DNA of 64,000 bases from Escherichia phage vB_EcoM_3A1_SA_NWU: the sequence record OR062524; one strand, written 5' to 3'. The notes beneath the pieces were generated by a model. That model was not told where the DNA came from and did not search any database. It was given only the letters and a program-made list of their open reading frames with translations. The translations under genes and the position numbers were made by a program. This document shows positions 10,365-25,173 of the stretch, piece after piece (position 1 is the stretch's first letter; each line of letters starts with the position of its first letter).

Positions 10365-11324
10365 TTAGATTCCAATAATAGTTGCTGCTCGTTTATCTTT
10401 GGATCTGGTGTTTGCTCTACTACGTGACAAACCTCCACAAGATTCACAACGAATGATATCGAAAGAACTTACCGCAGTGTGGTATTGCTTACCAGTAACA
10501 ACGTGAACATGATCACTGCCGCAACGAGAACAACGGACTTTCTCATCTGGGTAATAAGCGGATAAGTTAGGATGCTGTGGAATCCACGGAAGGATTTTCA
10601 TATACAAATCACGGAGTGAAACAACATCACCGTCATTGTAAATCTGCATACGTTCAAAAGCATCACGATCACCTTCACAACATGCTTTCCATAAAGGGAA
10701 CCCCTCGTTATCCAGTTTTTCACTTTCTGTTTCGAAATATGCTCCCATTTCTTTAAGGGAGTTGGAAGGAAGTGCAAATTGTTTCTTAGCTGCCTTCAAT
10801 GTATCAACAACTACATAATTAGAAGGAGGAGCCATATCGTGATATGCAAATCGTTGGTTAATGTATGCACGGTCAAACTTATATCCGTTGTGTGCCACAA
10901 CTACATCTGCCTCATTCAGAAGGTTCCAAAGATCTTGGCAAAGCTCCCAATCATCTGTATGATCAATATCAAAAAGAGGATAAGAAGACAAGTTCTTACC
11001 TTCCACTTCACCAGTATACAGGTCGGCAGAAGAGTAAGATAACAAATAACCCCTACGAATTACTTGATCTGGAGAAATGAAGGCTTTGAATCGACGGAAA
11101 GTATATGCAATCTCTGGTGCAGTTTCAACATCAATAATTTTAATAACTGGTTGTTTCTTTTTAACTGGCTCTTGTTTACTTGCTCCGAATCGTGCAAGGA
11201 AATCGTTCACTGTGCTTTTTCTTGTTGGACTACCTAAAACAATTGCTGCAATATTGCGAGAAGACATACCCTCTGCACTCATACTAAGGATATCTGCTTT
11301 CTGCTCTTCTGTTAATCTGCTCAC
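10365..11324 (-). CDS. DEDD-type 3'-5' exonuclease with N-terminal HTH and C-terminal zinc finger
   Basis: 319 aa; IDVETAP...HNGYKFD exonuclease motifs; N-terminal helix-turn-helix-like segment; C-terminal CSRCG...CESCGG. Confidence 0.5.
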   Translation of the reverse strand: MSRLTEEQKADILSMSAEGMSSRNIAAIVLGSPTRKSTVNDFLARFGASKQEPVKKKQPVIKIIDVETAPEIAYTFRRFKAFISPDQVIRRGYLLSYSSADLYTGEVEGKNLSSYPLFDIDHTDDWELCQDLWNLLNEADVVVAHNGYKFDRAYINQRFAYHDMAPPSNYVVVDTLKAAKKQFALPSNSLKEMGAYFETESEKLDNEGFPLWKACCEGDRDAFERMQIYNDGDVVSLRDLYMKILPWIPQHPNLSAYYPDEKVRCSRCGSDHVHVVTGKQYHTAVSSFDIIRCESCGGLSRSRANTRSKDKRAATIIGI

Positions 11325-12010
11325 TCTGCCTCCTGTTGCGAGATGTATGACTGAAGCATACTCTCAAATGTTGTATCGTCATTATCCCAGCGTTTCATGT
11401 ATACCAACTGGAAAATTGTTTCTATCCATTCATCTGTTGTCATATGGACTTCTTCTCCATCCCAAGAAGTAAAATTAACACCATCTGGGAACCATGAGTA
11501 GTAAGTATCTTTAACTGTTTGGAAAAGTTCTGCTTGAGTTTTACAAGCTGAAAGAAGATTAAAACAAGTAATATCTCCGAACTTAATATCAAAATCTTGA
11601 TAAGGTCGGATACTATCTGTTTTATCTCCCATTAGCATCTGATATGCTAACCAGTAACTGCCCCAACCTTTAACTTCTTTCTTTTTACCTTTATCTACGA
11701 TCCATATGTCGCCAATAGACTCGTCAATAAGAATTATATCTGGATTTTTAAATACTCCATCCTCTTTGTAGAAATTAAAAAGGATACTAGGAGTATGTAA
11801 ACTATCTTTATCTATAGATACAACGATATAAGAAAATTTACCCGTCCTTTTATAATCTTTATAACCTTGGAAACCATACTTCTCTAACTCATCATCAGCT
11901 TCTATTACAGTAACAACATCACCATTGTGGAACTCCACAAGATAATCTTTGGTTTCTGAAAGCTGGAGTGGTTTGATATCTAATCGTTCAGATTTATATT
12001 CTACAGGCAT
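11321..12010 (-). CDS. hypothetical protein (229 aa from first ATG; frame stays open 147 codons further upstream)
   Basis: ORF track; own translation of upstream in-frame region shows protein-like sequence including GVIGVGKT (P-loop-like) and no ATG/GTG/TTG. Confidence 0.5.
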   Translation of the reverse strand: MPVEYKSERLDIKPLQLSETKDYLVEFHNGDVVTVIEADDELEKYGFQGYKDYKRTGKFSYIVVSIDKDSLHTPSILFNFYKEDGVFKNPDIILIDESIGDIWIVDKGKKKEVKGWGSYWLAYQMLMGDKTDSIRPYQDFDIKFGDITCFNLLSACKTQAELFQTVKDTYYSWFPDGVNFTSWDGEEVHMTTDEWIETIFQLVYMKRWDNDDTTFESMLQSYISQQEAE

Positions 12011-12451
12011 TTTGAAGGCGTGTCTGAAAGTTTTTCCTACGCCAATAACTCCGCAATATTTTTCTAAACGTAGATGTTTTAGAATACCTAAGACTTTTGT
12101 TTTAGCTGCTTGGAAGGTGTGTCCGATATCTTCTGGCGGATATTGCTTATCAATGATTTCGAACTCTTCCTTTGTGAAGGGACGTTTGTTTTTGGAGGCT
12201 CTTTCTGCATTTGTATCTCCTAGCCAACCTCCAATTTTAGTCTTGCTTTTACCCCAAAACTCTGTCTTATTTTTAAATTCCTTTTGAGCACCTGAAGGGA
12301 TGTGCTTCGCAATGATTGTTCTTTTCTCTAATGCAGACGCTGCTTGGAAAGCGATCTGATCATAATCAATTGCAGCTATTGTTTCTTCGTTGACATATAA
12401 ATGAAGATCTTCAGGTTTAATTAAAATATAACCGCTAATATTTCCCCCTAA

Positions 12452-13668: not shown

Positions 13669-14394
13669 TTACTTATTAATAATACCTGCAATATTAGGTT
13701 TGACAAAGGTCGATGGTTTCATGATCTTACCTTTATCATCAAAGAACACATACACTTTCTGTTTTTCATTATAAACAGCATGAACACCAGTGTATGCCCC
13801 TTCTGGACGATTGGCATTTCGTTCTTCAATTGCAGCGCATTCTTGTGCAATGGCTGAATCGATATCCGAAGTTTTCCAAGTTTTCAGCAACTGTTGTTTA
13901 GTTGGATACTTGGAATCATTACTTTTCAATACCTCTTTAATAACTTTCTTTTCTGGATATTTTGAACGGATTAGAGTGTCACGAGACATACGCATAATAC
14001 CAGCAGCCATTAGTGCCATTTGAACTGGCTCTGTAAATGTTTGTTCCAAAGCATCAAAATCAGTATACACAGTTGGAGTAAAAACATCGCCTACAGCATA
14101 GTCCAAGAAATTCATCGTATGTTCTTCACCAAAGAACATGTAGGTCAGATAACTGGATACTACAAAAATATCCGCTGCTGCATCCAAGAGTTCTACATGA
14201 TCGTTTACTTTCGCGGCTGTTTCATACTCTTTAAGCTCTTCACGAACGAATCCGATTTGGGACATAAATAGCTCTTGAGTGAATTCAGGTTGTTCACCAC
14301 CTCGTGCTTTAGCATTCCAATCAATCACGTGCTTCGCTGCATTTTTGAAAAATTCAGTATCGAACTTAATATCTTTAAAAAAATTCTCGATCAT
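13669..14394 (-). CDS. putative MazG-like nucleoside triphosphate pyrophosphohydrolase
   Basis: 241 aa; REELKEYETAAKVNDHVELLDAAADI resembles the EExxE...D metal-binding helix of all-alpha NTP pyrophosphatases. Confidence 0.35.
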   Translation of the reverse strand: MIENFFKDIKFDTEFFKNAAKHVIDWNAKARGGEQPEFTQELFMSQIGFVREELKEYETAAKVNDHVELLDAAADIFVVSSYLTYMFFGEEHTMNFLDYAVGDVFTPTVYTDFDALEQTFTEPVQMALMAAGIMRMSRDTLIRSKYPEKKVIKEVLKSNDSKYPTKQQLLKTWKTSDIDSAIAQECAAIEERNANRPEGAYTGVHAVYNEKQKVYVFFDDKGKIMKPSTFVKPNIAGIINK

Positions 14395-14403
14395 TATAAC
14401 TCC

Positions 14404-14586
14404 TTATTTAAAATAGCTTTCTAGAAAGTTGCTAATATTTACTACAGTCTCACCCATGTAAATTCCTGCGAAACCGAAAACAAGCATACGTGGAATATTG
14501 AAATACCATTTATCCGCTGGAAAAGATGCCAGAATTACAATAGCAATTGCTATCAGCATCATAAGAATTGTTGCTAAAATTATCAT
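14404..14586 (-). CDS. small membrane protein (60 aa from internal ATG; track gives 14404..14664)
   Basis: Hydrophobic MIILATILMMLIAIAIVILASF; GGAGG RBS; ATG overlaps stop of upstream ORF (ATGA). Confidence 0.45.
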   Translation of the reverse strand: MIILATILMMLIAIAIVILASFPADKWYFNIPRMLVFGFAGIYMGETVVNISNFLESYFK

Positions 14587-14777
14587 AAAAATGCCTCCAA
14601 GTATTTTGAACAATGATAAGCTAAGAAACAAGAAACTACCGCATACCCAACTCCAGACATACATGAATCAATCACAACACATACGGTTCTTTTCTTTGAA
14701 TTCTTAGGAAAGTTTTCCGAAGCATTCATACAATAAAAAGAAAGTACACTGAAAACGATTAAAATGGCTAAGAACAT
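14583..14777 (-). CDS. small membrane protein (64 aa)
   Basis: Hydrophobic N-terminus MFLAILIVFSVLSF; AAGGAGG RBS directly after ligase stop. Confidence 0.45.
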   Translation of the reverse strand: MFLAILIVFSVLSFYCMNASENFPKNSKKRTVCVVIDSCMSGVGYAVVSCFLAYHCSKYLEAFL

Positions 14778-14786
14778 TTTTCCTCC

Positions 14787-15914
14787 TTACTCTGCTGGTT
14801 CCCAAGTGCCTGGGATCATTTCTCGAATACGAACACCAACAGGTTTTGTTGGAATACCTTCATCTGAAAATTCTTCATACTCTATTTCAACGAACTGATT
14901 AATCAAGGTAGAAGCATTCTCTGCTTTACGATAATTGATAGTCTCATGAGCATCTTTACGCATTAAGAATTCGACTACTTTACCATTTTCCATCTCACCT
15001 GTCAACACTCCATCGCCATTTTTATCGCTTTTTGAATTTGTTACTTTAACTTCAAGGGTGTGGCGAGGCTTACGTTTAATAACGTCATAAGAACGTTTAT
15101 CAAATTCGTAAACTCCGTGAGCATTACGATATACTACACCTTCAGCTTTCTCAAGTAAAGCTTTTTCATAGAAAGCGTCAAACTGCTCTTGGTTTTCAAT
15201 ATACTCTGTATGAACTACACAAATAAGCTCGTCAAGACCATAATCTTCAACTACTGCCTTAAGAGCAGCAAGAGCATCAACACGTTTTTCAAACGGTAGA
15301 CCTGGAACTGGAATATCGTATACGTAATAATTCAGCAAAGGTGTATTTGCATTATGCTTCTTCCAGGCACTGTTAATTTGTTGCAGACTAAGGACACCTA
15401 ACCCAGCAAACACTTCACCATCAAGAGGATGACCAACAACTTCACTAATAAAGTTTGGAATACCTTTCCAATGAGGTGGCAGGTTATACACTTCCCCAGC
15501 TTTTGATAAACACTCCCCTTTCATGTTAATCATAGAACGTAACCCGTTCAATTTGTATTGTGCATAACCAGGGAACACAACCCTTTCAGGATAATCTTTA
15601 TAATCCTGGCATTTCATTGGTGTAGAAGGAACATGGTTTTCAGCTTCTTCTTTTGTTTTATAATAGCCATTCTTTAACTGTTTTGTCCATTTGGCAAAAG
15701 CTTCAAGTTCAGCTTGTTCTTCCGGTGTTGTTTCATTGGAACGACCAATGTTTTTTGCTTCTGCTGTATAAGATTTTTCTGTGATTTTTCCACCTACCCT
15801 TCCATGAGCTACAGTAACAACTGCACCATCTGTATACACTGTCCACTGTTTAAGTTTTCCTTTTGAATCTTTACCATACAGCGTTTGATTTGTTTGTTGC
15901 ATTAGTCCTCCCAT
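14787..15914 (-). CDS. ATP-dependent polynucleotide ligase (probable DNA ligase) with KxNGxR motif I
   Basis: 375 aa; motif I KLNGLR, III LDGEVF, IV EGVVYR, V VIKRK; C-terminal OB-like region. Confidence 0.6.
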   Translation of the reverse strand: MGGLMQQTNQTLYGKDSKGKLKQWTVYTDGAVVTVAHGRVGGKITEKSYTAEAKNIGRSNETTPEEQAELEAFAKWTKQLKNGYYKTKEEAENHVPSTPMKCQDYKDYPERVVFPGYAQYKLNGLRSMINMKGECLSKAGEVYNLPPHWKGIPNFISEVVGHPLDGEVFAGLGVLSLQQINSAWKKHNANTPLLNYYVYDIPVPGLPFEKRVDALAALKAVVEDYGLDELICVVHTEYIENQEQFDAFYEKALLEKAEGVVYRNAHGVYEFDKRSYDVIKRKPRHTLEVKVTNSKSDKNGDGVLTGEMENGKVVEFLMRKDAHETINYRKAENASTLINQFVEIEYEEFSDEGIPTKPVGVRIREMIPGTWEPAE

Positions 15915-16123
15915 TTAAAAACTGAAATTTTCAATCTGTTACACACTTCATCCAAATCTGCGTCGAGTAACGTTGTAGATGTTGCCAACATGTAATCAAT
16001 GCTTGTGAAACCTTGCCCTTTGGCATAGTCAAGCATATCGTCATACATATCTTCAATATCACTGTCATCAAAAGTAGCTATAAAATCCTCATCTCCGCTA
16101 CGAACATAAAATGCAGTACTCAT
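15902..16123 (-). CDS. small acidic protein (73 aa)
   Basis: ORF track; D/E-rich sequence. Confidence 0.45.
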   Translation of the reverse strand: MSTAFYVRSGDEDFIATFDDSDIEDMYDDMLDYAKGQGFTSIDYMLATSTTLLDADLDEVCNRLKISVFKWED

Positions 16124-16311
16124 TCTTCTTCATCCCAAGATTCAAAAGCACAACAATCATCGGTTTCTATAATACCAACACGTCCGCAGGTATTGCAAGT
16201 GATTTTATCTCCGTAGAATAAATAATTTTTATCACCCTCTGTGTTTACAGTTATGTCATTACTACCACAAGGGCAAGTCAGCCAACCAACAACAACGATA
16301 TCTTTTTTCAT
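16120..16311 (-). CDS. small zinc-ribbon protein (63 aa)
   Basis: CPCG...CNTCG motifs. Confidence 0.45.
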   Translation of the reverse strand: MKKDIVVVGWLTCPCGSNDITVNTEGDKNYLFYGDKITCNTCGRVGIIETDDCCAFESWDEEE

Positions 16312-16320
16312 AATCCCTCC

Positions 16321-16647
16321 TTAAGCGTTCAGTTCGTTGTTGAGTTCGTAAATCTCTTCTTGAAGAGCATCAATCTCTTCCTCCAAACGGGAGATCTCTT
16401 CTTTTAGATATACCATTTCGGATTCTTTCTCTTCTAATTCATTTTCAAATTTTACTTTATTAGCCTCATTTTCATAATGCAGTTCAGCGTAATCATCACG
16501 CATTTGTTCAATAAGATGAATCAGAGACAAGATATAATTGTCTCCCGTTTCATCACGCCACTCTTCACCGTGACGGAGAACGGTAATTCGTCCAGTATCT
16601 TCATCTAAAATTGTCTCATATTTACGATCATCTGTATAAATCTGCAT
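16321..16647 (-). CDS. coiled-coil protein (108 aa)
   Basis: Heptad-rich C-terminal half (EISRLEEEIDALQEEIYELNNEL). Confidence 0.45.
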   Translation of the reverse strand: MQIYTDDRKYETILDEDTGRITVLRHGEEWRDETGDNYILSLIHLIEQMRDDYAELHYENEANKVKFENELEEKESEMVYLKEEISRLEEEIDALQEEIYELNNELNA

Positions 16648-16656
16648 TATTTCTCC

Positions 16657-17061
16657 TTATTGAAGTTTAAGTGAACCACGAAGACGTTTCTCTTGCTGAT
16701 CACGGATATATTGTGGAACCTCGTGAATTGAATCATTACCGTGCCTATTTTCAACAATTAAAGAGATAACTTGATAACCAAACTCTTCAGCAAGAGCTAG
16801 ATAAGGTTTAAGTTCTTTCTCTGTGGTTGAAGTATTAGAAACAATAATCTTGTTAAGATTAGATGCCATAGCATCACGAACAATACCCTGACACCATGCG
16901 TGTGCTTTACCTACATTTTCTGGCTTCCAATCGTAAACACCACTCTCTGTGTAATGATATTGATCTGCCTCACAGATAGGCCAATAACCTTCAGAAATAA
17001 TTTCTGCTACTGTAGATTTACCAGCACCTGAAACGCCACGTAAAATGATAAGTTGTTTCAT
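16657..17061 (-). CDS. polynucleotide 5'-kinase (T4 Pnk kinase-domain-like P-loop protein)
   Basis: 134 aa; ILRGVSGAGKST P-loop, EADQYH and SNTS segments align with T4 Pnk kinase motifs as recalled. Confidence 0.6.
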   Translation of the reverse strand: MKQLIILRGVSGAGKSTVAEIISEGYWPICEADQYHYTESGVYDWKPENVGKAHAWCQGIVRDAMASNLNKIIVSNTSTTEKELKPYLALAEEFGYQVISLIVENRHGNDSIHEVPQYIRDQQEKRLRGSLKLQ

Positions 17062-17994
17062 TTATCCTCCAAAAAAGTTTTCGATTTTTTCACGTCGCTC
17101 TTGCTGATTTAAAGCAGCCCATTGAGTCTTCGTAAAATTATTTCGAATCCATTCTAATAAAGCGTAATATTCTTCGTCAACAATTTGTTTGGCATTTTTC
17201 GGATTATCCCAAATCAGATCCCACTTTTTATCTCCACCGCGCATAAGAAACTTCTTAGTAAGATAGTGTGGTGATTTAATTTTTAAAAGTAAGTTGAACG
17301 GATAGTTTGTTTCACGAACTACAAACCCTTCGTGTTTACAATGTTTAGACATTTCAACAACATCTGAAAACTTAACCATTGGATAAACTTCAGGACGCTT
17401 AAATTTGGTGACAGAAGCAATTCCATCAAGAGCACCTTCAGGTAACATAAAACTTGTCCCATCAGGGTTTTGAATTCTGGCACCAATTAAGTATGCACCT
17501 GGTTCTTCTTCGACAATATGCGGATCAGAAGGATCACAGATTTCAAAAAGGAAAGTTGCTTTTGCACTCTCTGTCCATTTGATGAAATGTTCTATGTCAT
17601 CACACTCTGAAACAATATGATTCTTTGCAATACTTGCAAAATCTGATTCAAGGCTTCCTGTTGTCGATACAATAAGTTGACCTTTATATACACCTACAGA
17701 GGCCATAAAACCATTTACTTTACGAACCACATCTACAAGTTCATCCGCTGGTAGATCTGTGCCATTCTCAAAATGATTAAAAATCTTAGTGAAAGGCCAA
17801 ATAACAACATTGTCATCAGCGTCAACAACGATTCCGCGACATTCCAGAAGACGAGAATCAATGCCCCATAAGTTATCCCAGAAAACTTTGTTCTTATACT
17901 TAAGAACAGATAGACCAGAATACTCTCCTTCTTTATATGTTTTCTTATGAACTAAACCTTTTTCAACCAAATCGTCGCAGTTAAATTTAGCCAC
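17062..17994 (-). CDS. RNA ligase-like nucleotidyltransferase
   Basis: 310 aa; motif I KVNGF, IV EGFVVR, V LLKIK; sits between kinase and phosphoesterase with 1-nt gaps. Confidence 0.6.
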   Translation of the reverse strand: MAKFNCDDLVEKGLVHKKTYKEGEYSGLSVLKYKNKVFWDNLWGIDSRLLECRGIVVDADDNVVIWPFTKIFNHFENGTDLPADELVDVVRKVNGFMASVGVYKGQLIVSTTGSLESDFASIAKNHIVSECDDIEHFIKWTESAKATFLFEICDPSDPHIVEEEPGAYLIGARIQNPDGTSFMLPEGALDGIASVTKFKRPEVYPMVKFSDVVEMSKHCKHEGFVVRETNYPFNLLLKIKSPHYLTKKFLMRGGDKKWDLIWDNPKNAKQIVDEEYYALLEWIRNNFTKTQWAALNQQERREKIENFFGG

Positions 17995-17995
17995 A

Positions 17996-18547
17996 TTACT
18001 CTCCTTTGATTATTTTGTGATGGTCTACAGTCACGATATCTCGTTTACTCATCATAGAAATTATCTCATCAAAATGCAAGATTTTTCCATGTGCATCCCA
18101 ACCCACATCTAACATTTTACCATAAGCTTCATCAGGGAAAGATCCGTGGGAATGCCCGTGTAGCATGATTGATCCACGACCTTGTTTATTCCAGGAGGCC
18201 ATAGGGTAATGGCTTAAGACGAAGAACAGCTTCTGATATTTCACTTCGTCATAATACACCACTTCTCCATACTCTGCAAGCACTTCTCGGTGTTTGCTGT
18301 AATCATGGTTCCCAACACAGTAGGTGATATCTCCTTGAAGACGAGAAGCAATTTTACGGGTATCTTCTTCAGTTCCGAAACAGAAGTCGCCCAAATGCCA
18401 CATCTTAACACCAGGAGTAGTAGCACATTTGTTCCATGCTTCGATCAAGGCTTCTGTCATGTGGTCCATATCTTCCCACGGACGATATTCAGGAGCAAAC
18501 TCTCGAATACGTTTATGCATAAAATGCAAATCGCTTGTAATAAACAT
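17996..18547 (-). CDS. calcineurin-like metallophosphoesterase
   Basis: 183 aa; DLHF, GDFCFG, GNHD, HGHSH motifs. Confidence 0.8.
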   Translation of the reverse strand: MFITSDLHFMHKRIREFAPEYRPWEDMDHMTEALIEAWNKCATTPGVKMWHLGDFCFGTEEDTRKIASRLQGDITYCVGNHDYSKHREVLAEYGEVVYYDEVKYQKLFFVLSHYPMASWNKQGRGSIMLHGHSHGSFPDEAYGKMLDVGWDAHGKILHFDEIISMMSKRDIVTVDHHKIIKGE

Positions 18548-18903
18548 TAGTATAATCCCTCGCTAAATAATTCATGGTCGTGACCATTACGCTCATGGTC
18601 GATCTGGTCAGCATTTTCCGCGATGATGTAAGCATCCGCACGACTCCACCAATTGTAATACTGATCGATAAAGCCTTGATTATCTGGTGTGCACAAAGTT
18701 TTGTTGATTACACCTGCTTCTTTCAACACGTTTAACTGTGCATATAGTACAGGATTTGCATGTCGAACACAAGGAATAATTAACTCTTCACCATTATTCA
18801 AAATATACTTATTTGCAGCACAGACGATAACACGTTGCGCATAATGACCCTCACCCATCCAGGTAAGAGGTTGGTAACAAATATTGTTTTCAATACCACT
18901 CAT
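18547..18903 (-). CDS. hypothetical protein, first gene of the RNA-repair operon
   Basis: 118 aa; stop overlaps phosphoesterase start (TAATG). Confidence 0.5.
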   Translation of the reverse strand: MSGIENNICYQPLTWMGEGHYAQRVIVCAANKYILNNGEELIIPCVRHANPVLYAQLNVLKEAGVINKTLCTPDNQGFIDQYYNWWSRADAYIIAENADQIDHERNGHDHELFSEGLY

Positions 18904-18909
18904 TGTTTC

Positions 18910-19053
18910 CTAATCCTCCTCTCTTAAGTTATCCTCGAAAAAACTAGTGTCTGGAAGTAAAAGATCATTACTTGTGTCGGGCCAATCCTCTTCTTCTCGG
19001 TAGATAAAGTAACCTTCGTCCTCTTCTTGTTCCGACCAAACCGAATGATGCAT
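18910..19053 (-). CDS. small highly acidic protein (47 aa, unannotated)
   Basis: Own translation MHHSVWSEQEEDEGYFIYREEEDWPDTSNDLLLPDTSFFEDNLREED; AAGGAG RBS. Confidence 0.35.
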   Translation of the reverse strand: MHHSVWSEQEEDEGYFIYREEEDWPDTSNDLLLPDTSFFEDNLREED

Positions 19054-23160: not shown

Positions 23161-23235
23161 GGCCCTGTAGCTCAATGGGAGAGCTGTCGGCTCATAACCG
23201 ATAGGTAGCTGGATCGAAACCAGCCAGGGCCACCA
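23161..23235 (+). tRNA. tRNA-Met (anticodon CAU), CCA encoded
   Basis: Manual fold: acceptor GGCCCTG/CAGGGCC, anticodon loop CTCATAA, T-arm GCTGG-ATCGAAA-CCAGC. Confidence 0.8.
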
Positions 23236-23237
23236 AA

Positions 23238-23312
23238 GTCTTTATGGTGTAATGGATAGCACAGGAGTCTTCTAAACTCTTAGTCAAGGTTCGATTCCTT
23301 GTAAAGACACCA
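23238..23312 (+). tRNA. tRNA-Arg (anticodon UCU), CCA encoded
   Basis: Manual fold: acceptor GTCTTTA/TAAAGAC, anticodon loop CTTCTAA, T-loop TTCGATT. Confidence 0.75.
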
Positions 23313-23508
23313 GAACATTTTAACATGAATTAGCTCAAGTGATTTGAACCCACTACTGATCATGGTGGCAGAGAATGAGGCAAGTATGTCAGACATTATA
23401 AACAAAGGCCACGGTTATATTAGAAGACATAAATGCTCGAAGAGCACCGTTCGTGGAGAACGGGGGTTGGTGGAGTCACCATTCATGGTAAAATGTTTTA
23501 AAAAACTA

Positions 23509-23538
23509 TTGACAACAAACATTATTTTATGTTAGATT
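23509..23538 (+). promoter_or_regulatory. possible internal promoter TTGACA-N18-TAGATT before tRNA-Ser
   Basis: ttgacaacaaacattattttatgttagatt, about 10 nt before tRNA start. Confidence 0.35.
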
Positions 23539-23546
23539 ATAAGTAT

Positions 23547-23637
23547 GGAAGGGCAAATCGATGTGGCGACGAAAACGGTCTTGAAAACCGCCGAGCTTGA
23601 AAGAGCCTTGGGAGTTCGACTCTCCCTCCTTCCGCCA
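23547..23637 (+). tRNA. tRNA-Ser (anticodon UGA), long variable arm, CCA encoded
   Basis: Manual fold: acceptor GGAAGGG/TCCTTCC, anticodon loop CTTGAAA, T-arm GGGAG-TTCGACT-CTCCC. Confidence 0.75.
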
Positions 23638-23642
23638 GATTA

Positions 23643-23728
23643 GGTAGATTGGTGAAATGGTAGCCACGACAGTTTGCTAAACTGTAGTCGGAAACGGCGT
23701 GTAGGTTCGAGTCCTACATCTACCGCCA
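23643..23728 (+). tRNA. tRNA-Ser (anticodon GCU), long variable arm, CCA encoded
   Basis: Manual fold: acceptor GGTAGAT/ATCTACC, anticodon loop TTGCTAA, variable-arm hairpin with GAAA loop. Confidence 0.75.
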
Positions 23729-23858
23729 AGTTCTTTTTAATGTAGCTTACTTTAGCAGAGTAAATCTTCGGCAAGTGGCGGTAACCACTTTACCGATACC
23801 TCATAGTTAGTGGTGTGAACACTGGCTATTTTAAAAAGAATTTAAATATTAGTATTTA

Positions 23859-23946
23859 GGTGAGTTAATTCCGTAGGGGTAGCGGGGCAGACTGTAAATC
23901 TGTTATCATTGCGATTCGGGTGGTTCGACTCCATCACTCACCACCA
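23859..23946 (+). tRNA. tRNA-Tyr (anticodon GUA), class II, atypical 5-nt connector before D-stem
   Basis: Acceptor GGTGAGT/ACTCACC 7/7, anticodon loop CTGTAAA, T-loop TTCGACT, CCA encoded. Confidence 0.6.
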
Positions 23947-23952
23947 AATTAA

Positions 23953-24038
23953 GATGAGTTGGCTGAATGGTTTAAGCGGCGGACTGTTAATCCGTGTTCG
24001 AAAGAACAATATAGGTTCGAATCCTATACTCATCGCCA
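23953..24038 (+). tRNA. class II tRNA (long variable arm) with anticodon GUU (nominally Asn); identity uncertain
   Basis: Acceptor GATGAGT/ACTCATC, 3-bp D-stem, anticodon loop CTGTTAA, variable hairpin GTTC-GAAA-GAAC, T-arm ATAGG-TTCGAAT-CCTAT, CCA encoded. Confidence 0.55.
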
Positions 24039-24045
24039 GAATTAT

Positions 24046-24122
24046 GGACTTGTAGAGTTAAGGTAAACCCCCAGTCGCCAATAGGCTTCTGGAATTGCAG
24101 GTATCGAATCCTGCCGAGTCCC
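24046..24122 (+). ncRNA. tRNA-like element with intact acceptor pairing but no canonical anticodon arm
   Basis: GGACTTG...CGAGTCC acceptor pairing and T-arm-like GCAGG-tatcgaat-CCTGC (8-nt loop); no 5-bp/7-nt anticodon hairpin found by hand. Confidence 0.3.
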
Positions 24123-24128
24123 AGCATT

Positions 24129-24203
24129 GCTCCTATAGTATAATGGCTATTACAACGGTTTTGTAATCCGTGGATCTCTGTTCGATTCAGTGTGGGAGCA
24201 CCA
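24129..24203 (+). tRNA. tRNA-Thr (anticodon UGU), CCA encoded
   Basis: Acceptor GCTCCTA/TGGGAGC, anticodon loop TTTGTAA, T-loop TTCGATT. Confidence 0.65.
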
Positions 24204-24519
24204 ACACAACATTAAGAGCACTGTGATTGATCGTCGTATCCTGTGCACAAGGTCTGCTCGAAAGACAGTGTTCTTAGTATTGTGTTGATCACAAAAAGAG
24301 TCACCCGAAACTTGACCGGAGTAGGGTTGGATGGGGCAAAATGAGAAGCGGCTCTCCCATCGACAGCAACGAAGAATAATATTTGACTTTGGTTTTGTAT
24401 TATTTTAAGTTAGCTTACCGAACGTAGGGCTAGTCACCCAACGGGATACTCGTCACTGTCCCAATCAATAAAAGTCTTGACAACAAATAGTAAAATGTAG
24501 TATAGTAAATATATATGGC
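24204..24519 (+). ncRNA. 315-nt non-coding spacer with long-range pairing; candidate stable RNA
   Basis: aagagcactgtg ... acagtgttctt pairing, repeated agtcaccc(g/a)aac motif; no ORF or tRNA fold. Confidence 0.25.
24477..24506 (+). promoter_or_regulatory. sigma70-like promoter TTGACA-N18-TATAGT before tRNA-Gly
   Basis: cttgacaacaaatagtaaaatgtagtatagt. Confidence 0.4.
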
Positions 24520-24593
24520 GTTCTTGGTGTAGCGGTAGCATTCCGTCCTTCCAAGTCGGCGGCACGAGTTCGATCCTCGTAGAACGCTCCAAA
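24520..24593 (+). tRNA. tRNA-Gly (anticodon UCC), CCA encoded
   Basis: Acceptor GCGTTCT/AGAACGC, anticodon loop CTTCCAA, T-arm ACGAG-TTCGATC-CTCGT, discriminator U. Confidence 0.75.
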
Positions 24594-24689
24594 TTATTTA
24601 ATAAAGGGTTGCCAGAAAACTTTCTCTTTTACTCATGGTTTTCTCCTTCTCTCACACTTCTTCTGGTTGCCCTTCATTAAATGATTTAT

Positions 24690-24765
24690 TGGTTTGTAGT
24701 GTAGTCCGGTAGCACACGACACTTTGACTGTCGTAGGTTTGGTTCAAATCCAGACAGACCAGCCA
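24690..24765 (+). tRNA. tRNA-Gln (anticodon UUG), U1-A72, CCA encoded
   Basis: Acceptor TGGTTTG/CAGACCA, anticodon stem CGACA/TGTCG with loop CTTTGAC. Confidence 0.75.
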
Positions 24766-24858
24766 TATAACAAAGGTGAGTCACTACCTTAAGTGTGAAG
24801 TTAAAAACGAGGAGCCGCCGAACACTTTCTTTTGCGGTGTACCTTTAGAATGTTATCA

Positions 24859-24935
24859 CGGGACGTAGCACAGCTTGGTAGTGCGCTCGCTTTGGGAGCG
24901 AGAGGTCGAGTGTTCGAATCACTCCGTCCCGACCA
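24859..24935 (+). tRNA. tRNA-Pro (anticodon UGG), CCA encoded
   Basis: Acceptor CGGGACG/CGTCCCG, anticodon stem CTCGC/GCGAG loop TTTGGGA. Confidence 0.8.
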
Positions 24936-24941
24936 ATTAAA

Positions 24942-25015
24942 TGTTTCGTAGTTCAATGGTAGAACCCACGACTGATAATCGTGAGACACAAGTTCGATTC
25001 TTGTCGAAACAACCA
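24942..25015 (+). tRNA. tRNA-Ile (anticodon GAU), CCA encoded
   Basis: Acceptor TGTTTCG/CGAAACA, anticodon stem CACGA/TCGTG loop CTGATAA. Confidence 0.75.
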
Positions 25016-25017
25016 GT

Positions 25018-25077
25018 TTCCCGTTAGACTTACAGGATAAGAGTTCCACAGCTTATTGTGATGCTGGTTCGAATCCA
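25018..25077 (+). ncRNA. tRNA-like element (good acceptor and T-arm, degenerate anticodon arm)
   Basis: TTCCCGT...ACGGGAT pairing, T-arm GCTGG-TTCGAAT-CCAGC, no canonical anticodon hairpin. Confidence 0.3.
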
Positions 25078-25094
25078 GCACGGGATACATAATA

Positions 25095-25173
25095 GCGGGA
25101 TAGAGGAGTCTGGTCGTCCTCGCCAGTTTCATATGCTGGAGATCATCGGTTCAAATCCGATTCCCGCCTCCAA
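25095..25173 (+). tRNA. tRNA with CAU anticodon (second Met-type or lysidine-Ile), A1/C72 mismatch, CCA encoded
   Basis: Acceptor AGCGGGA/TCCCGCC, anticodon stem CCAGT/GCTGG loop TTCATAT. Confidence 0.65.

What the first reader, a model, noticed from the sequence alone, without database searches (positions are those of the whole stretch)
14787..15914. Second ligase with Asn in place of the usual Asp in motif I (KLNGLR)
Both ligases in this window carry KxNG rather than canonical KxDG in motif I. This 375-aa protein has the full motif set I, III, IV, V and an OB-like C-terminus, so it could be the replicative DNA ligase or a second RNA ligase. Two ligases within 3 kb is unusual.
Basis: partly seen in the sequence, partly recalled or inferred. 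Interest (0 to 1): 0.5.

Follow-up and report, generated by a model that had tools for sequence, protein, structure and literature searches.

The report
Phage DNA ligase with motif-I asparagine
This is the ordinary, already annotated ATP-dependent DNA ligase of a phAPEC8-like E. coli phage; its asparagine in place of the textbook aspartate is a common natural variant that is also found in the well-studied African swine fever virus ligase.

Summary
The minus-strand ORF 14787-15914 encodes a ligase whose motif I reads KLNGLR (Asn codon AAC at 15546-15548). The neighbouring Rnl1-type RNA ligase reads KVNG, aligned to T4 Rnl1 K99-EDG. The interpretation that this is unusual does not hold.

- The window is a Phapecoctavirus, and the protein is 100% identical to a RefSeq "ATP-dependent DNA ligase". 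The true start is probably the second ATG (15902), giving 371 aa.
- It is a DNA ligase, not a second RNA ligase. It passes Pfam DNA_ligase_A_M, carries motifs I, III, IIIa, IV and V plus an OB domain with motif VI, and all top-50 structural matches are DNA ligases.
[quoted passage not shown] That enzyme also has Asn in motif I (KRNG, Asn153) and is active.
- Asn is common in this family: 108 of 121 close homologues and 54 of 144 distant representatives, with at least 25 N/D switches.
- Asn tends to go with loss of the canonical Arg-Phe in motif VI.
- The N-terminal domain is WGR-like and is shared with the ASFV ligase domain that was published as a "novel fold".
- It is the only full-size DNA ligase annotated in a 99.3%-identical relative's genome.
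- The second ligase belongs to an RNA-repair trio. This DNA-ligase/RNA-ligase linkage recurs in at least one related genus.

Low interest.

The parts
14787..15902 (-). ATP-dependent DNA ligase gene: 371 codons plus stop. The maximal ORF reaches the upstream ATG at 15914.
   Evidence: ORF listing. 100% identical to the ESCO13 protein annotated 'ATP-dependent DNA ligase'. Pfam PF01068 36.3 bits against a cut-off of 26.2. PHROG_114 E 2.4e-74. AF2 model pLDDT 95.2.
15907..15911 (-). Shine-Dalgarno GGAGG, 4 nt upstream of the second ATG (15900-15902). This ATG overlaps the upstream gene's TAA stop (TAATG).
   Evidence: Sequence read directly. The RefSeq annotation of ESCO13 places an RBS and the start here.
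15618..15902 (-). N-terminal DNA-binding domain (aa 1-95): a WGR-like beta-sheet plus long helix, homologous to the ASFV ligase NTD.
15726..15755 (-). Conserved loop KNIGRSNETT (aa 50-59): an insertion relative to canonical WGR domains. It corresponds to the DNA-contacting beta7-alpha3 loop of AsfvLIG.
   Evidence: N51, G53 and N56 are invariant in 105 and in 52 homologues. It aligns with AsfvLIG 'KNLGKKNATT'. It is absent from 2ra8 in the alignment. The DNA contacts of this loop are taken from PMC6344480.
15063..15617 (-). Adenylyltransferase (nucleotidyltransferase) domain, aa 96-280.
   Evidence: Pfam DNA_ligase_A_M covers aa 99-282 of the 375-aa form. Secondary structure from the model.
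15537..15554 (-). Motif I KLNGLR. K117 is the predicted AMP-accepting lysine. N119 (AAC, 15546-15548) stands in place of the canonical Asp.
   Evidence: K117, G120 and R122 are invariant.
15408..15425 (-). Motif III LDGEVF (D161 and E163 invariant).
15384..15386 (-). Leu173, a nick-site residue equivalent to AsfvLIG Leu211 and human LIG1 Phe635.
   Evidence: Alignment to AsfvLIG 'KPLQWI'. L173 and Q174 are invariant in close homologues. Among 150 representatives the position is L in 121 and F in 25. The ASFV/human equivalence is from PMC6344480.
15312..15329 (-). Motif IIIa YYVYDI (Y195 invariant; predicted to stack on adenine).
   Evidence: The role is inferred from general knowledge of the family.
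15123..15143 (-). Motif IV EGVVYRN (E254 and G255 invariant).
15066..15083 (-). Motif V VIKRKP (K276 and K278 invariant).
14790..15062 (-). OB-fold domain, aa 281-371.
   Evidence: The AF2 model shows a beta-barrel-type strand pattern. The profile aligns through to AsfvLIG residue 411 and Chlorella virus ligase residue 300. Weak Pfam DNA_ligase_OB_2 hit.
14820..14852 (-). Motif VI PTKPVGVRIRE. T352/K353 (14844-14849) occupy the positions of AsfvLIG Leu402/Gln403 and human LIG1 Arg871/Phe872.
   Evidence: The family profile 'gvPTKPVGvglRe' aligns with AsfvLIG 'GIPLQARAVGFRE' (399-411).
17062..17994 (-). Context: the other ligase, an Rnl1-type RNA ligase (motif I KVNG).
   Evidence: Pfam RNA_lig_T4_1 E 2.9e-15. 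PHROG_562 E 8.5e-70. Alignment to T4 Rnl1 K99.
16657..17061 (-). Context: P-loop kinase resembling polynucleotide kinase.
   Evidence: Pfam AAA_33 E 3.5e-10. PHROG_505 polynucleotide kinase E 1.2e-7. The RefSeq note cites a pseT domain.
17996..18547 (-). Context: calcineurin-type metallophosphoesterase, the presumed RNA 3'-end-healing partner.
   Evidence: Pfam Metallophos E 3.1e-5 (24.9 bits, cut-off 21.5). PHROG_547 E 6.5e-56.

Best explanation
The gene encodes the phage's own ATP-dependent DNA ligase, a three-domain enzyme of the type solved for African swine fever virus.

Inferred mechanism, by homology:
1. Lys117 of motif I attacks ATP to form ligase-AMP. The OB domain's motif VI assists this step.
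2. The WGR-like N-terminal domain, the adenylyltransferase domain and the OB domain close as a clamp around nicked duplex DNA.
3. AMP is passed to the 5'-phosphate of the nick.
4. The 3'-OH attacks and seals the nick.

The motif I Asn119 does the job of the canonical Asp: it positions the metal-water shell and packs against motif VI under the nick. It is one member of a co-varying nick-site set, Asn119/Leu173/Thr352/Lys353. The ASFV ligase has Asn153/Leu211/Leu402/Gln403 and human LIG1 has Asp570/Phe635/Arg871/Phe872. In this set the Asp-Arg salt bridge has been given up.

It is the only full-size DNA ligase annotated in a 99.3%-identical relative of this phage. It sits in a DNA-replication and recombination gene block, so it most likely seals Okazaki fragments and repair or recombination nicks in phage DNA.

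Shown here: identity, domain architecture, motif registration, and the frequency and covariation of Asn. Inferred: catalysis, substrate and in vivo role.
For: - Identity: the region is 100% identical to E. coli phage 10C3 and 99.3% identical to ESCO13 and Schickermooser (Phapecoctavirus), where the gene is annotated 'ATP-dependent DNA ligase'.
- Family: Pfam DNA_ligase_A_M above its cut-off, PHROG_114 E 2.4e-74, and every NCBIfam hit is a DNA ligase.
- Fold: AF2 pLDDT 95.2. The Foldseek top hits are the AsfvLIG-DNA catalytic complexes (E 4e-24 to 2e-22, TMq 0.77-0.79 over about 404-423 columns), followed by T4, Lig E, Chlorella virus, archaeal and human DNA ligases. No RNA ligase appears in the top 50.
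- Profile search: the profile matches AsfvLIG at E 6.9e-24 from the NTD through motif VI.
- Catalytic residues: K117, R122, D161, E163, Y195, E254, K276 and K278 are invariant in 105 homologues.
- Asn tolerated: AsfvLIG has Asn153 in KRNG and is an active ligase (PMC6344480). Trl1 uses KxNG, with the Asn contacting the waters of the catalytic metal (PMC6379707).
- Asn common: 108 N vs 13 D among close homologues and 54 N vs 90 D among 30-50%-identity representatives. At least 25 parsimony switches on a rough tree.
- Covariation: among close homologues the best partner of the N/D position is residue 352 of motif VI (N with T in 104 of 108; D with L in 11 of 13). In the wide set, Arg at 352 pairs with Asp 20:1, Phe at 353 pairs with Asp 62:11, and Lys at 353 pairs with Asn 32:15.
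- Only ligase: the full Schickermooser annotation lists no other full-size DNA ligase. It does list the phage's own PolA-type polymerase, a DnaB-like helicase/primase and a UvrD helicase.
- Neighbours: a DnaQ-like exonuclease subunit, a phrog_107 exonuclease, an RdgC-like protein and a MazG-like pyrophosphohydrolase.
Against: - No biochemistry exists for this protein or, as far as I could find, for any close homologue. ATP use, DNA specificity and the in vivo role are inferred.
- The host's NAD-dependent LigA could serve replication, in which case the phage enzyme might be repair- or recombination-specific. The ASFV homologue is described as a base-excision-repair ligase.
- The covariation between motif I and motif VI is not corrected rigorously for phylogeny. 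The D-class among close homologues may be a single clade.
- The residue equivalences rest on sequence alignment plus the published ASFV/human comparison, not on a superposition I computed.
- The 'only ligase' statement rests on the annotation of a 99.3%-identical relative, not on a profile scan of every ORF.
Confidence: 0.88

Rival explanations
1. It is a second RNA ligase, or a ligase whose preferred substrate is an RNA-containing nick, working with the adjacent RNA-repair genes rather than on phage DNA.
For: It lies 1.1 kb from an Rnl1-type ligase, a kinase and a phosphoesterase. Its N-terminal domain is WGR-like, and a review describes WGR as functioning in RNA binding in other proteins (PMC7470946). 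Some DNA ligases of the small NT-OB type accept RNA-splinted substrates (my own knowledge, not tested here).
Against: There is no match to any RNA-ligase family in Pfam, PHROGs, NCBIfam or PDB. All 26 profile hits in PDB and all top-50 fold hits are DNA ligases. It has an OB domain with motif VI, which Rnl1-type ligases lack. The homologous ASFV domain binds duplex DNA (PMC6344480). Three small ORFs separate it from the RNA-repair trio, and downstream lie DNA-metabolism genes.
Confidence: 0.05
2. The Asp-to-Asn change marks a crippled or inactive ligase: a pseudo-enzyme or a mere DNA-nick binder.
For: Alanine substitution of the motif I Asp is severely damaging in Chlorella virus ligase, as cited in PMC6035275. 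Asn cannot form the Asp-Arg salt bridge seen in human LIG1 (PMC6344480).
Against: All other catalytic residues are invariant. Asn is the majority state among close homologues and was gained or lost at least 25 times across the family. AsfvLIG with Asn153 is active, and mutants carrying N153D together with L402R/Q403F were less active than wild type. Trl1 uses KxNG. This is the only full-size DNA ligase annotated in a 99.3%-identical relative, a phage that encodes its own replisome.
Confidence: 0.03
3. It is a dedicated repair or recombination ligase. For example, it may seal nicks left by host nucleases or base-excision repair, possibly tolerating mismatches as the ASFV enzyme does. Okazaki-fragment joining would then be left to host LigA.
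Against: The phage encodes its own polymerase, helicase/primase and 5'-3' exonuclease, and no other ligase. The ASFV authors concluded that the four residues matter for complex assembly and efficiency rather than for fidelity as such. Replication and repair roles are not mutually exclusive.
Confidence: 0.25

Closest known systems
African swine fever virus DNA ligase (AsfvLIG, NP419L; PDB 6imj/6imk/6iml/6imn)
   Same: Both have the same three-domain order: mixed alpha/beta N-terminal DNA-binding domain, then adenylyltransferase, then OB. The full-length fold match has TM 0.78, and the profile matches at E 6.9e-24 from the NTD to motif VI. Both have Asn in motif I (KRNG vs KLNG), Leu at the human Phe635 position, a conserved KNxGxxNxTT DNA-contact loop, and no Arg-Phe in motif VI.
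   Different: Sequence identity is only about 20%. The ASFV NTD is about 25 residues longer at its N-terminus. Motif VI has Thr-Lys here and Leu-Gln in ASFV. The host is a bacterium rather than an animal. The ASFV enzyme is biochemically characterised as error-prone; nothing is known for this one.
Minimal NT-OB ATP-dependent DNA ligases (Lig E, e.g. 4d05/6gdr; Chlorella virus ligase 2q2t)
   Same: The catalytic core is shared, with motifs I-VI aligned end to end (profile E 8e-20 and 3e-16; Foldseek E 1e-16 to 1e-18).
   Different: Those enzymes lack an N-terminal DNA-binding domain and carry the canonical KxDG. NCBIfam Lig E model: 55.7 bits against a cut-off of 200.
Bacterial NT-OB_2 ligases with an annotated N-terminal WGR domain (delta-proteobacteria, Planctomycetia, a third Prochlorococcus ligase; Williamson & Leiros 2020, PMC7470946)
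   Same: A WGR-type domain is fused N-terminally to an NT-OB_2 ligase core.
   Different: In the phage and ASFV proteins the WGR signature is too divergent to pass Pfam, and carries an inserted KNxGxxNETT loop. One homologue reaches 19.4 bits against a cut-off of 22. The relationship to those bacterial ligases was not tested here.
T4 DNA ligase (gp30, 6dt1) and the T4 Rnl1 + Pnkp RNA-repair pair
   Same: T4 is a large myophage that carries its own ATP-dependent DNA ligase and also an Rnl1 with end-healing enzymes. The core fold matches (Foldseek E 5e-18).
   Different: T4 ligase has an all-helical DNA-binding domain and KxDG. Here the healing functions are split into a separate P-loop kinase and a metallophosphoesterase.
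Fungal tRNA ligase Trl1 (KxNG motif I)
   Same: It provides a precedent for a functional Asn at the third position of motif I; the Asn contacts the hydrated catalytic metal (PMC6379707). This is relevant to both ligases of the window.
   Different: Trl1 is an RNA ligase with a different C-terminal domain and no OB domain or motif VI. It is not a relative of the DNA ligase beyond the shared superfamily core.

Membership tests
ATP-dependent DNA ligase (covalent nucleotidyltransferase superfamily; Pfam PF01068 DNA_ligase_A_M) | Score above the family's curated threshold | tested here: met
   36.3 bits against a gathering score of 26.2, covering profile positions 1-204 of 204. PHROG_114 'ATP-dependent DNA ligase' E 2.4e-74.
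ATP-dependent DNA ligase | Motif I lysine in a Kx(D)GxR context | tested here: met
   KLNGLR, with K117, G120 and R122 invariant. It aligns to KLDGIR of Lig E and KRNGVR of AsfvLIG. The third residue is Asn, not Asp. This variant is documented in AsfvLIG.
ATP-dependent DNA ligase | Motifs III, IIIa, IV and V with their conserved acidic, aromatic and lysine residues | tested here: met
   LDGEVF, YYVYDI, EGVVYRN and VIKRKP. D161, E163, Y195, E254, G255, K276 and K278 are invariant in 105 sequences.
ATP-dependent DNA ligase | C-terminal OB domain carrying motif VI | tested here: met
   The model shows an OB-type strand pattern. The profile aligns PTKPVGVRIRE with AsfvLIG PLQARAVGFRE and runs to the C-terminus of Chlorella virus ligase.
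ATP-dependent DNA ligase | ATP-dependent self-adenylylation and sealing of 3'-OH/5'-PO4 nicks in duplex DNA | not testable with these tools
   This requires purified protein.
ASFV-type ligase (NTD-AD-OB, PDB 6imj family) | N-terminal mixed alpha/beta DNA-binding domain homologous to the AsfvLIG NTD | tested here: met
ASFV-type ligase | The four 'unique' nick-site residues Asn153, Leu211, Leu402 and Gln403 | tested here: inconclusive
   Asn119 and Leu173 match. Thr352 and Lys353 differ from Leu402/Gln403, but like them they replace the canonical Arg-Phe.
RNA ligases Rnl1-Rnl6 | Match to an RNA-ligase family model or fold, with a clade-specific C- or N-terminal module instead of an OB domain with motif VI | tested here: not met
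   No RNA-ligase family was matched in Pfam, PHROGs or NCBIfam for this protein. No RNA ligase appears among the 26 PDB profile hits or the top 50 fold hits.
WGR domain (Pfam PF05406), for the N-terminal domain only | Score above the Pfam gathering threshold | tested here: not met
   The window protein gave no hit even at E up to 10. One homologue's NTD reached 19.4 bits against a cut-off of 22, E 0.0012.
WGR domain, for the N-terminal domain only | WGR fold (antiparallel sheet packed on one long helix) | tested here: met
Lig E (NCBIfam NF006592 / PRK09125) | Score above the NCBIfam cut-off | tested here: not met
   55.7 bits against a cut-off of 200. The window protein also has an extra N-terminal domain.

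The most novel reading that the evidence does not exclude
The two features published as unique to the African swine fever virus ligase are in fact hallmarks of a very large family of bacteriophage DNA ligases, of which this gene is a typical member. Those features are its 'completely novel' N-terminal DNA-binding domain and its non-canonical nick-site residues headed by the motif I Asn. More than 3,000 50%-identity representative clusters score below E 1e-10.

The domain is a divergent WGR (DNA-break-sensing) fold with an inserted KNxGxxNETT loop. Within the family, the motif I Asp/Asn state co-evolves with the motif VI residue that lies against it under the nick. The two alternative solutions are Asp with Arg-Phe and Asn with Thr/Leu-Lys, and they may differ in nick-site rigidity and mismatch tolerance.
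Probability: 0.55. Interest if true: 0.4.

Novelty: already known. Interest (0 to 1): 0.2.

Why it matters
As a finding, it matters little. The gene is a correctly annotated phage DNA ligase, and the Asn is a frequent, functional variant of motif I. It signals neither a new ligase class nor a pseudo-enzyme.

Three side results have modest value:
- They give an evolutionary home (tailed phages) and a fold assignment (WGR-like) to the ASFV ligase domain that has been proposed as a virus-specific drug target.
- They offer a natural panel of Asp/Arg-Phe versus Asn/Thr-Lys ligases. This panel could be used to test how the residues under the nick set ligation efficiency and fidelity, which is of interest for engineered ligases.
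- They are a reminder that 'KxDG' should be read as 'Kx(D/N)G' when scanning for ligases.

Tried and rejected
- phmmer of the window Rnl1 against all PDB sequences found nothing at E up to 1. I therefore checked the registration by BLASTP against T4 Rnl1, whose sequence I recalled and then verified as 100% identical to T4 rnlA.
- Weak Pfam hits of the NTD to RNase_H, NAD_binding_4 and CdvA (E 0.009-0.11, far below their cut-offs) were dismissed as noise.
- A literature search for the Chlorella virus ligase Asp29 mutagenesis papers did not retrieve them. I found only a secondary citation in PMC6035275.
- A search for a characterised ligase of this phage family ('R2D ligase', Cronobacter phage CR9) found nothing in the library.
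- A search for 'AsfvLIG' together with 'bacteriophage' gave one irrelevant paper. I therefore could not find a prior statement that phage ligases share the ASFV NTD, but the library is incomplete.
- I considered that Asn might be a sequencing error or a strain-specific mutation. This was rejected because Asn is conserved in 108 of 121 close homologues.
- I considered that the 65-aa ORF labelled 'DNA ligase' in Schickermooser (gp046, outside the window) might be a second ligase. It is too short for any ligase domain, and I did not analyse it.
- I could not inspect side-chain contacts in the AF2 model because coordinates are not exposed. The Asn119-Thr352 proximity is therefore inferred from the ASFV and human structures as described in PMC6344480.
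Full report
**What the window is.** Bases 14000-19000 are 100% identical to Escherichia phage vB_EcoM_10C3_SA_NWU. They are 99.3% identical to phages ESCO13 and Schickermooser, which belong to genus Phapecoctavirus (phAPEC8-like myophages of about 150 kb). In those records the ORF in question is annotated 'ATP-dependent DNA ligase'. The translated ORF is 100% identical to the ESCO13 protein.

**Check of the observation.**
- A 375-codon ORF lies at 14787-15914 on the minus strand.
- The DNA reads CAA TAC AAA TTG AAC GGG TTA CGT = QYKLNGLR, with the Asn codon AAC at 15546-15548.
[quoted passage not shown] A family profile gives the same alignment.
- Lys, Gly and Arg of the motif are invariant in 105 homologues.
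- Motifs III, IIIa, IV, V and VI are present, with their catalytic residues invariant.
- The other ligase in the window (17062-17994) does carry KVNG. BLASTP aligns it with K99-EDG of T4 Rnl1. I verified that T4 sequence as 100% T4 rnlA.
- One correction: the first ATG (15914) lies within the upstream gene and has no ribosome-binding site. The second ATG (15902) follows GGAGG and overlaps the upstream stop as TAATG. RefSeq and nearly all homologues give 371 aa. I use 371-aa numbering below.

**What the protein is.**
- Pfam DNA_ligase_A_M is matched above its gathering score across the whole model. PHROG_114 (ATP-dependent DNA ligase) scores E 2.4e-74. Every NCBIfam hit is a DNA ligase, although none reaches a family-specific cut-off.
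- An AlphaFold2 model built on 105 homologues is very confident (pLDDT 95.2, pTM 0.85).
- The best Foldseek matches in the PDB are the catalytic DNA complexes of the ASFV ligase: E 4e-24 to 2e-22, TM 0.77-0.79, with 404-423 aligned columns spanning all three domains.
- Next come T4 ligase, Lig E, a Rhizobium phage ligase, Chlorella virus ligase, and archaeal and human ligases. There is no RNA ligase in the top 50.
- A profile of the family matches the ASFV ligase at E 6.9e-24, from residue 74 of its N-terminal domain to residue 411 in motif VI.
- The protein is therefore a DNA ligase with the architecture N-terminal DNA-binding domain, adenylyltransferase domain, then OB domain. It is not a second RNA ligase.

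**The asparagine.** The ASFV ligase paper (PMC6344480) names four 'unique' residues around the nick:
- Asn153, which is the motif I residue and corresponds to human LIG1 Asp570.
- Leu211, corresponding to Phe635.
- Leu402 and Gln403, corresponding to Arg871 and Phe872 in motif VI.

In human LIG1, Asp570 and Arg871 form a salt bridge under the nick. The ASFV enzyme is active with Asn. Mutants carrying N153D together with L402R/Q403F were less active than wild type.

By the alignments, the window protein has Asn119, Leu173, Thr352 and Lys353 at these four positions. Fungal tRNA ligase Trl1 is a second precedent. Its motif I is described as KxNG, with the Asn contacting the waters of the catalytic metal (PMC6379707).

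**How common Asn is.**
- Among the 120 best homologues (at least 45% identity) plus the query, the third residue of motif I is Asn in 108 and Asp in 13.
- Among 150 cluster representatives at about 30-50% identity, it is Asp in 90 and Asn in 54.
- On a rough neighbour-joining tree of 139 of these, parsimony needs at least 25 Asn/Asp changes. Shuffled tips need 42 on average.
- Asn is therefore a frequent and repeatedly exchanged state. It is not an oddity of this phage.

**Covariation.**
- In the close set, the column sharing most information with the Asn/Asp column is residue 352 of motif VI. Asn goes with Thr in 104 of 108, and Asp goes with Leu in 11 of 13. This is the position equivalent to ASFV Leu402 and human Arg871.
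- In the wide set, Arg at 352 occurs with Asp 20 times and with Asn once.
- Phe at 353 goes with Asp 62:11, and Lys at 353 goes with Asn 32:15.
- This fits two alternative packings under the nick: Asp with Arg-Phe, or Asn with uncharged/Lys residues.
- I have not corrected this for phylogeny beyond counting about 9 independent changes of the Arg state, so I regard it as suggestive.

**The N-terminal domain.**
- The NTD profile alone finds the ASFV ligase at E 3.2e-6 and 2ra8 at E 0.035.
- Pfam WGR is not matched by the window protein. One homologue with 'EWGRVGGK' reaches 19.4 bits against a cut-off of 22.
- Relative to canonical WGR, the ligase domains carry an inserted, nearly invariant loop KNxGxxNETT. 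In the ASFV structure this is the DNA-contacting beta7-alpha3 loop.
- The ASFV paper and a 2020 review describe this domain as unique or a completely novel fold. The same review notes that bacterial NT-OB_2 ligases with annotated WGR domains exist (PMC7470946).
- Yutin and Koonin (PMC2806865) had already placed the ASFV ligase among bacterial and phage ligases.
- So the general kinship is known. I did not find the specific points (shared NTD, WGR fold, shared Asn/Leu) stated anywhere, but the searchable library is incomplete.

**Role in the phage.**
- The complete annotation of Schickermooser lists no NAD-dependent ligase and no other full-size DNA ligase. There is only a 65-aa ORF with that label, outside the window.
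- The same annotation lists a PolA-type polymerase, a DnaB-like primase/helicase, a UvrD helicase and ribonucleotide reductases.
- Downstream of the ligase lie a MazG-like pyrophosphohydrolase, an RdgC-like protein, a phrog_107 exonuclease and a DnaQ-like polymerase exonuclease subunit.
- I therefore infer that this is the phage's ligase for Okazaki fragments and for repair and recombination nicks. A repair-only role, with host LigA serving replication, cannot be excluded.

**Two ligases within 3 kb.**
- The second ligase is flanked by a P-loop kinase resembling polynucleotide kinase (16657-17061) and a metallophosphoesterase (17996-18547).
- Together these form an RNA end-healing and sealing set like T4 Pnkp plus Rnl1. 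Ten tRNA genes lie 5 kb away.
- In the rV5-like phage HdK5, homologues of both ligases again lie 2.5 kb apart.
- Both proteins are found in the same phage groups (Escherichia, Pseudomonas, Klebsiella, Vibrio and Cronobacter myophages).
- The arrangement recurs in at least one related genus and is not unusual.

**Verdict.** This large phage family shares the supposedly unique N-terminal domain and nick-site residues of the ASFV ligase, and that domain is WGR-like.

Noticed in passing
window 16657-18547 (minus strand): Three adjacent genes look like a split RNA-repair system: a metallophosphoesterase (17996-18547), an Rnl1-type RNA ligase (17062-17994) and a P-loop polynucleotide-kinase-like protein (16657-17061). 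The phosphoesterase is calcineurin-type rather than the HAD phosphatase of T4 Pnkp.
   Followed up: partly
homologues P0129, P0164, P0176, P0183, P0192 (700-730 aa); the insertion point corresponds to window 15540-15545: Several family members carry an insertion of about 330-350 aa exactly inside motif I, reading KL(D/N)G|CF…VHN|CR. This has the hallmarks of an intein: Cys at position 1, a C-terminal His-Asn, and a +1 Cys.
   Followed up: partly
window 11321-12439 (minus strand): The phrog_107 exonuclease gene is open for 372 codons, and the homology covers aa 10-367. There is no ATG, GTG or TTG before codon 144. An ATT at 12437-12439, preceded by GGGGGA (12443-12448), is the probable start, and ESCO13 RefSeq annotates it so. 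Schickermooser annotates only the last 229 codons.
   Followed up: partly
window 15900-15914: The maximal ligase ORF starts at an ATG that lies within the upstream 73-aa gene. The likely start is the second ATG, which has GGAGG upstream and a TAATG stop/start overlap suggesting translational coupling.
   Followed up: yes
window 23161-25172 (plus strand): There is a cluster of ten tRNA genes (Met, Arg, Ser, Asn, Thr, Gly, Gln, Pro, Ile, Met). It lies just after the point near 22 kb where GC skew and gene orientation switch from the minus to the plus strand.
   Followed up: partly
L002 (NC_048196.1) 15760-15957, outside the window: A 65-aa ORF (gp046) is labelled 'DNA ligase' in RefSeq. It is far too short for any ligase domain, so this is probably an annotation artefact.
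   Followed up: no
search hits (e.g. MG065650.1, OP562383.1, MH252123.1): Records named Campylobacter, Acinetobacter or Klebsiella phage are 97-99% identical to these E. coli phapecoctaviruses across the region. The host labels may be unreliable, or the host range may be broad.
   Followed up: no
window 18547-18903 (minus strand): A 118-aa protein directly upstream of the phosphoesterase matches only a PHROG of unknown function (phrog_839, E 4e-47). It overlaps the phosphoesterase start by one base, so it may belong to the RNA-repair unit.
   Followed up: no
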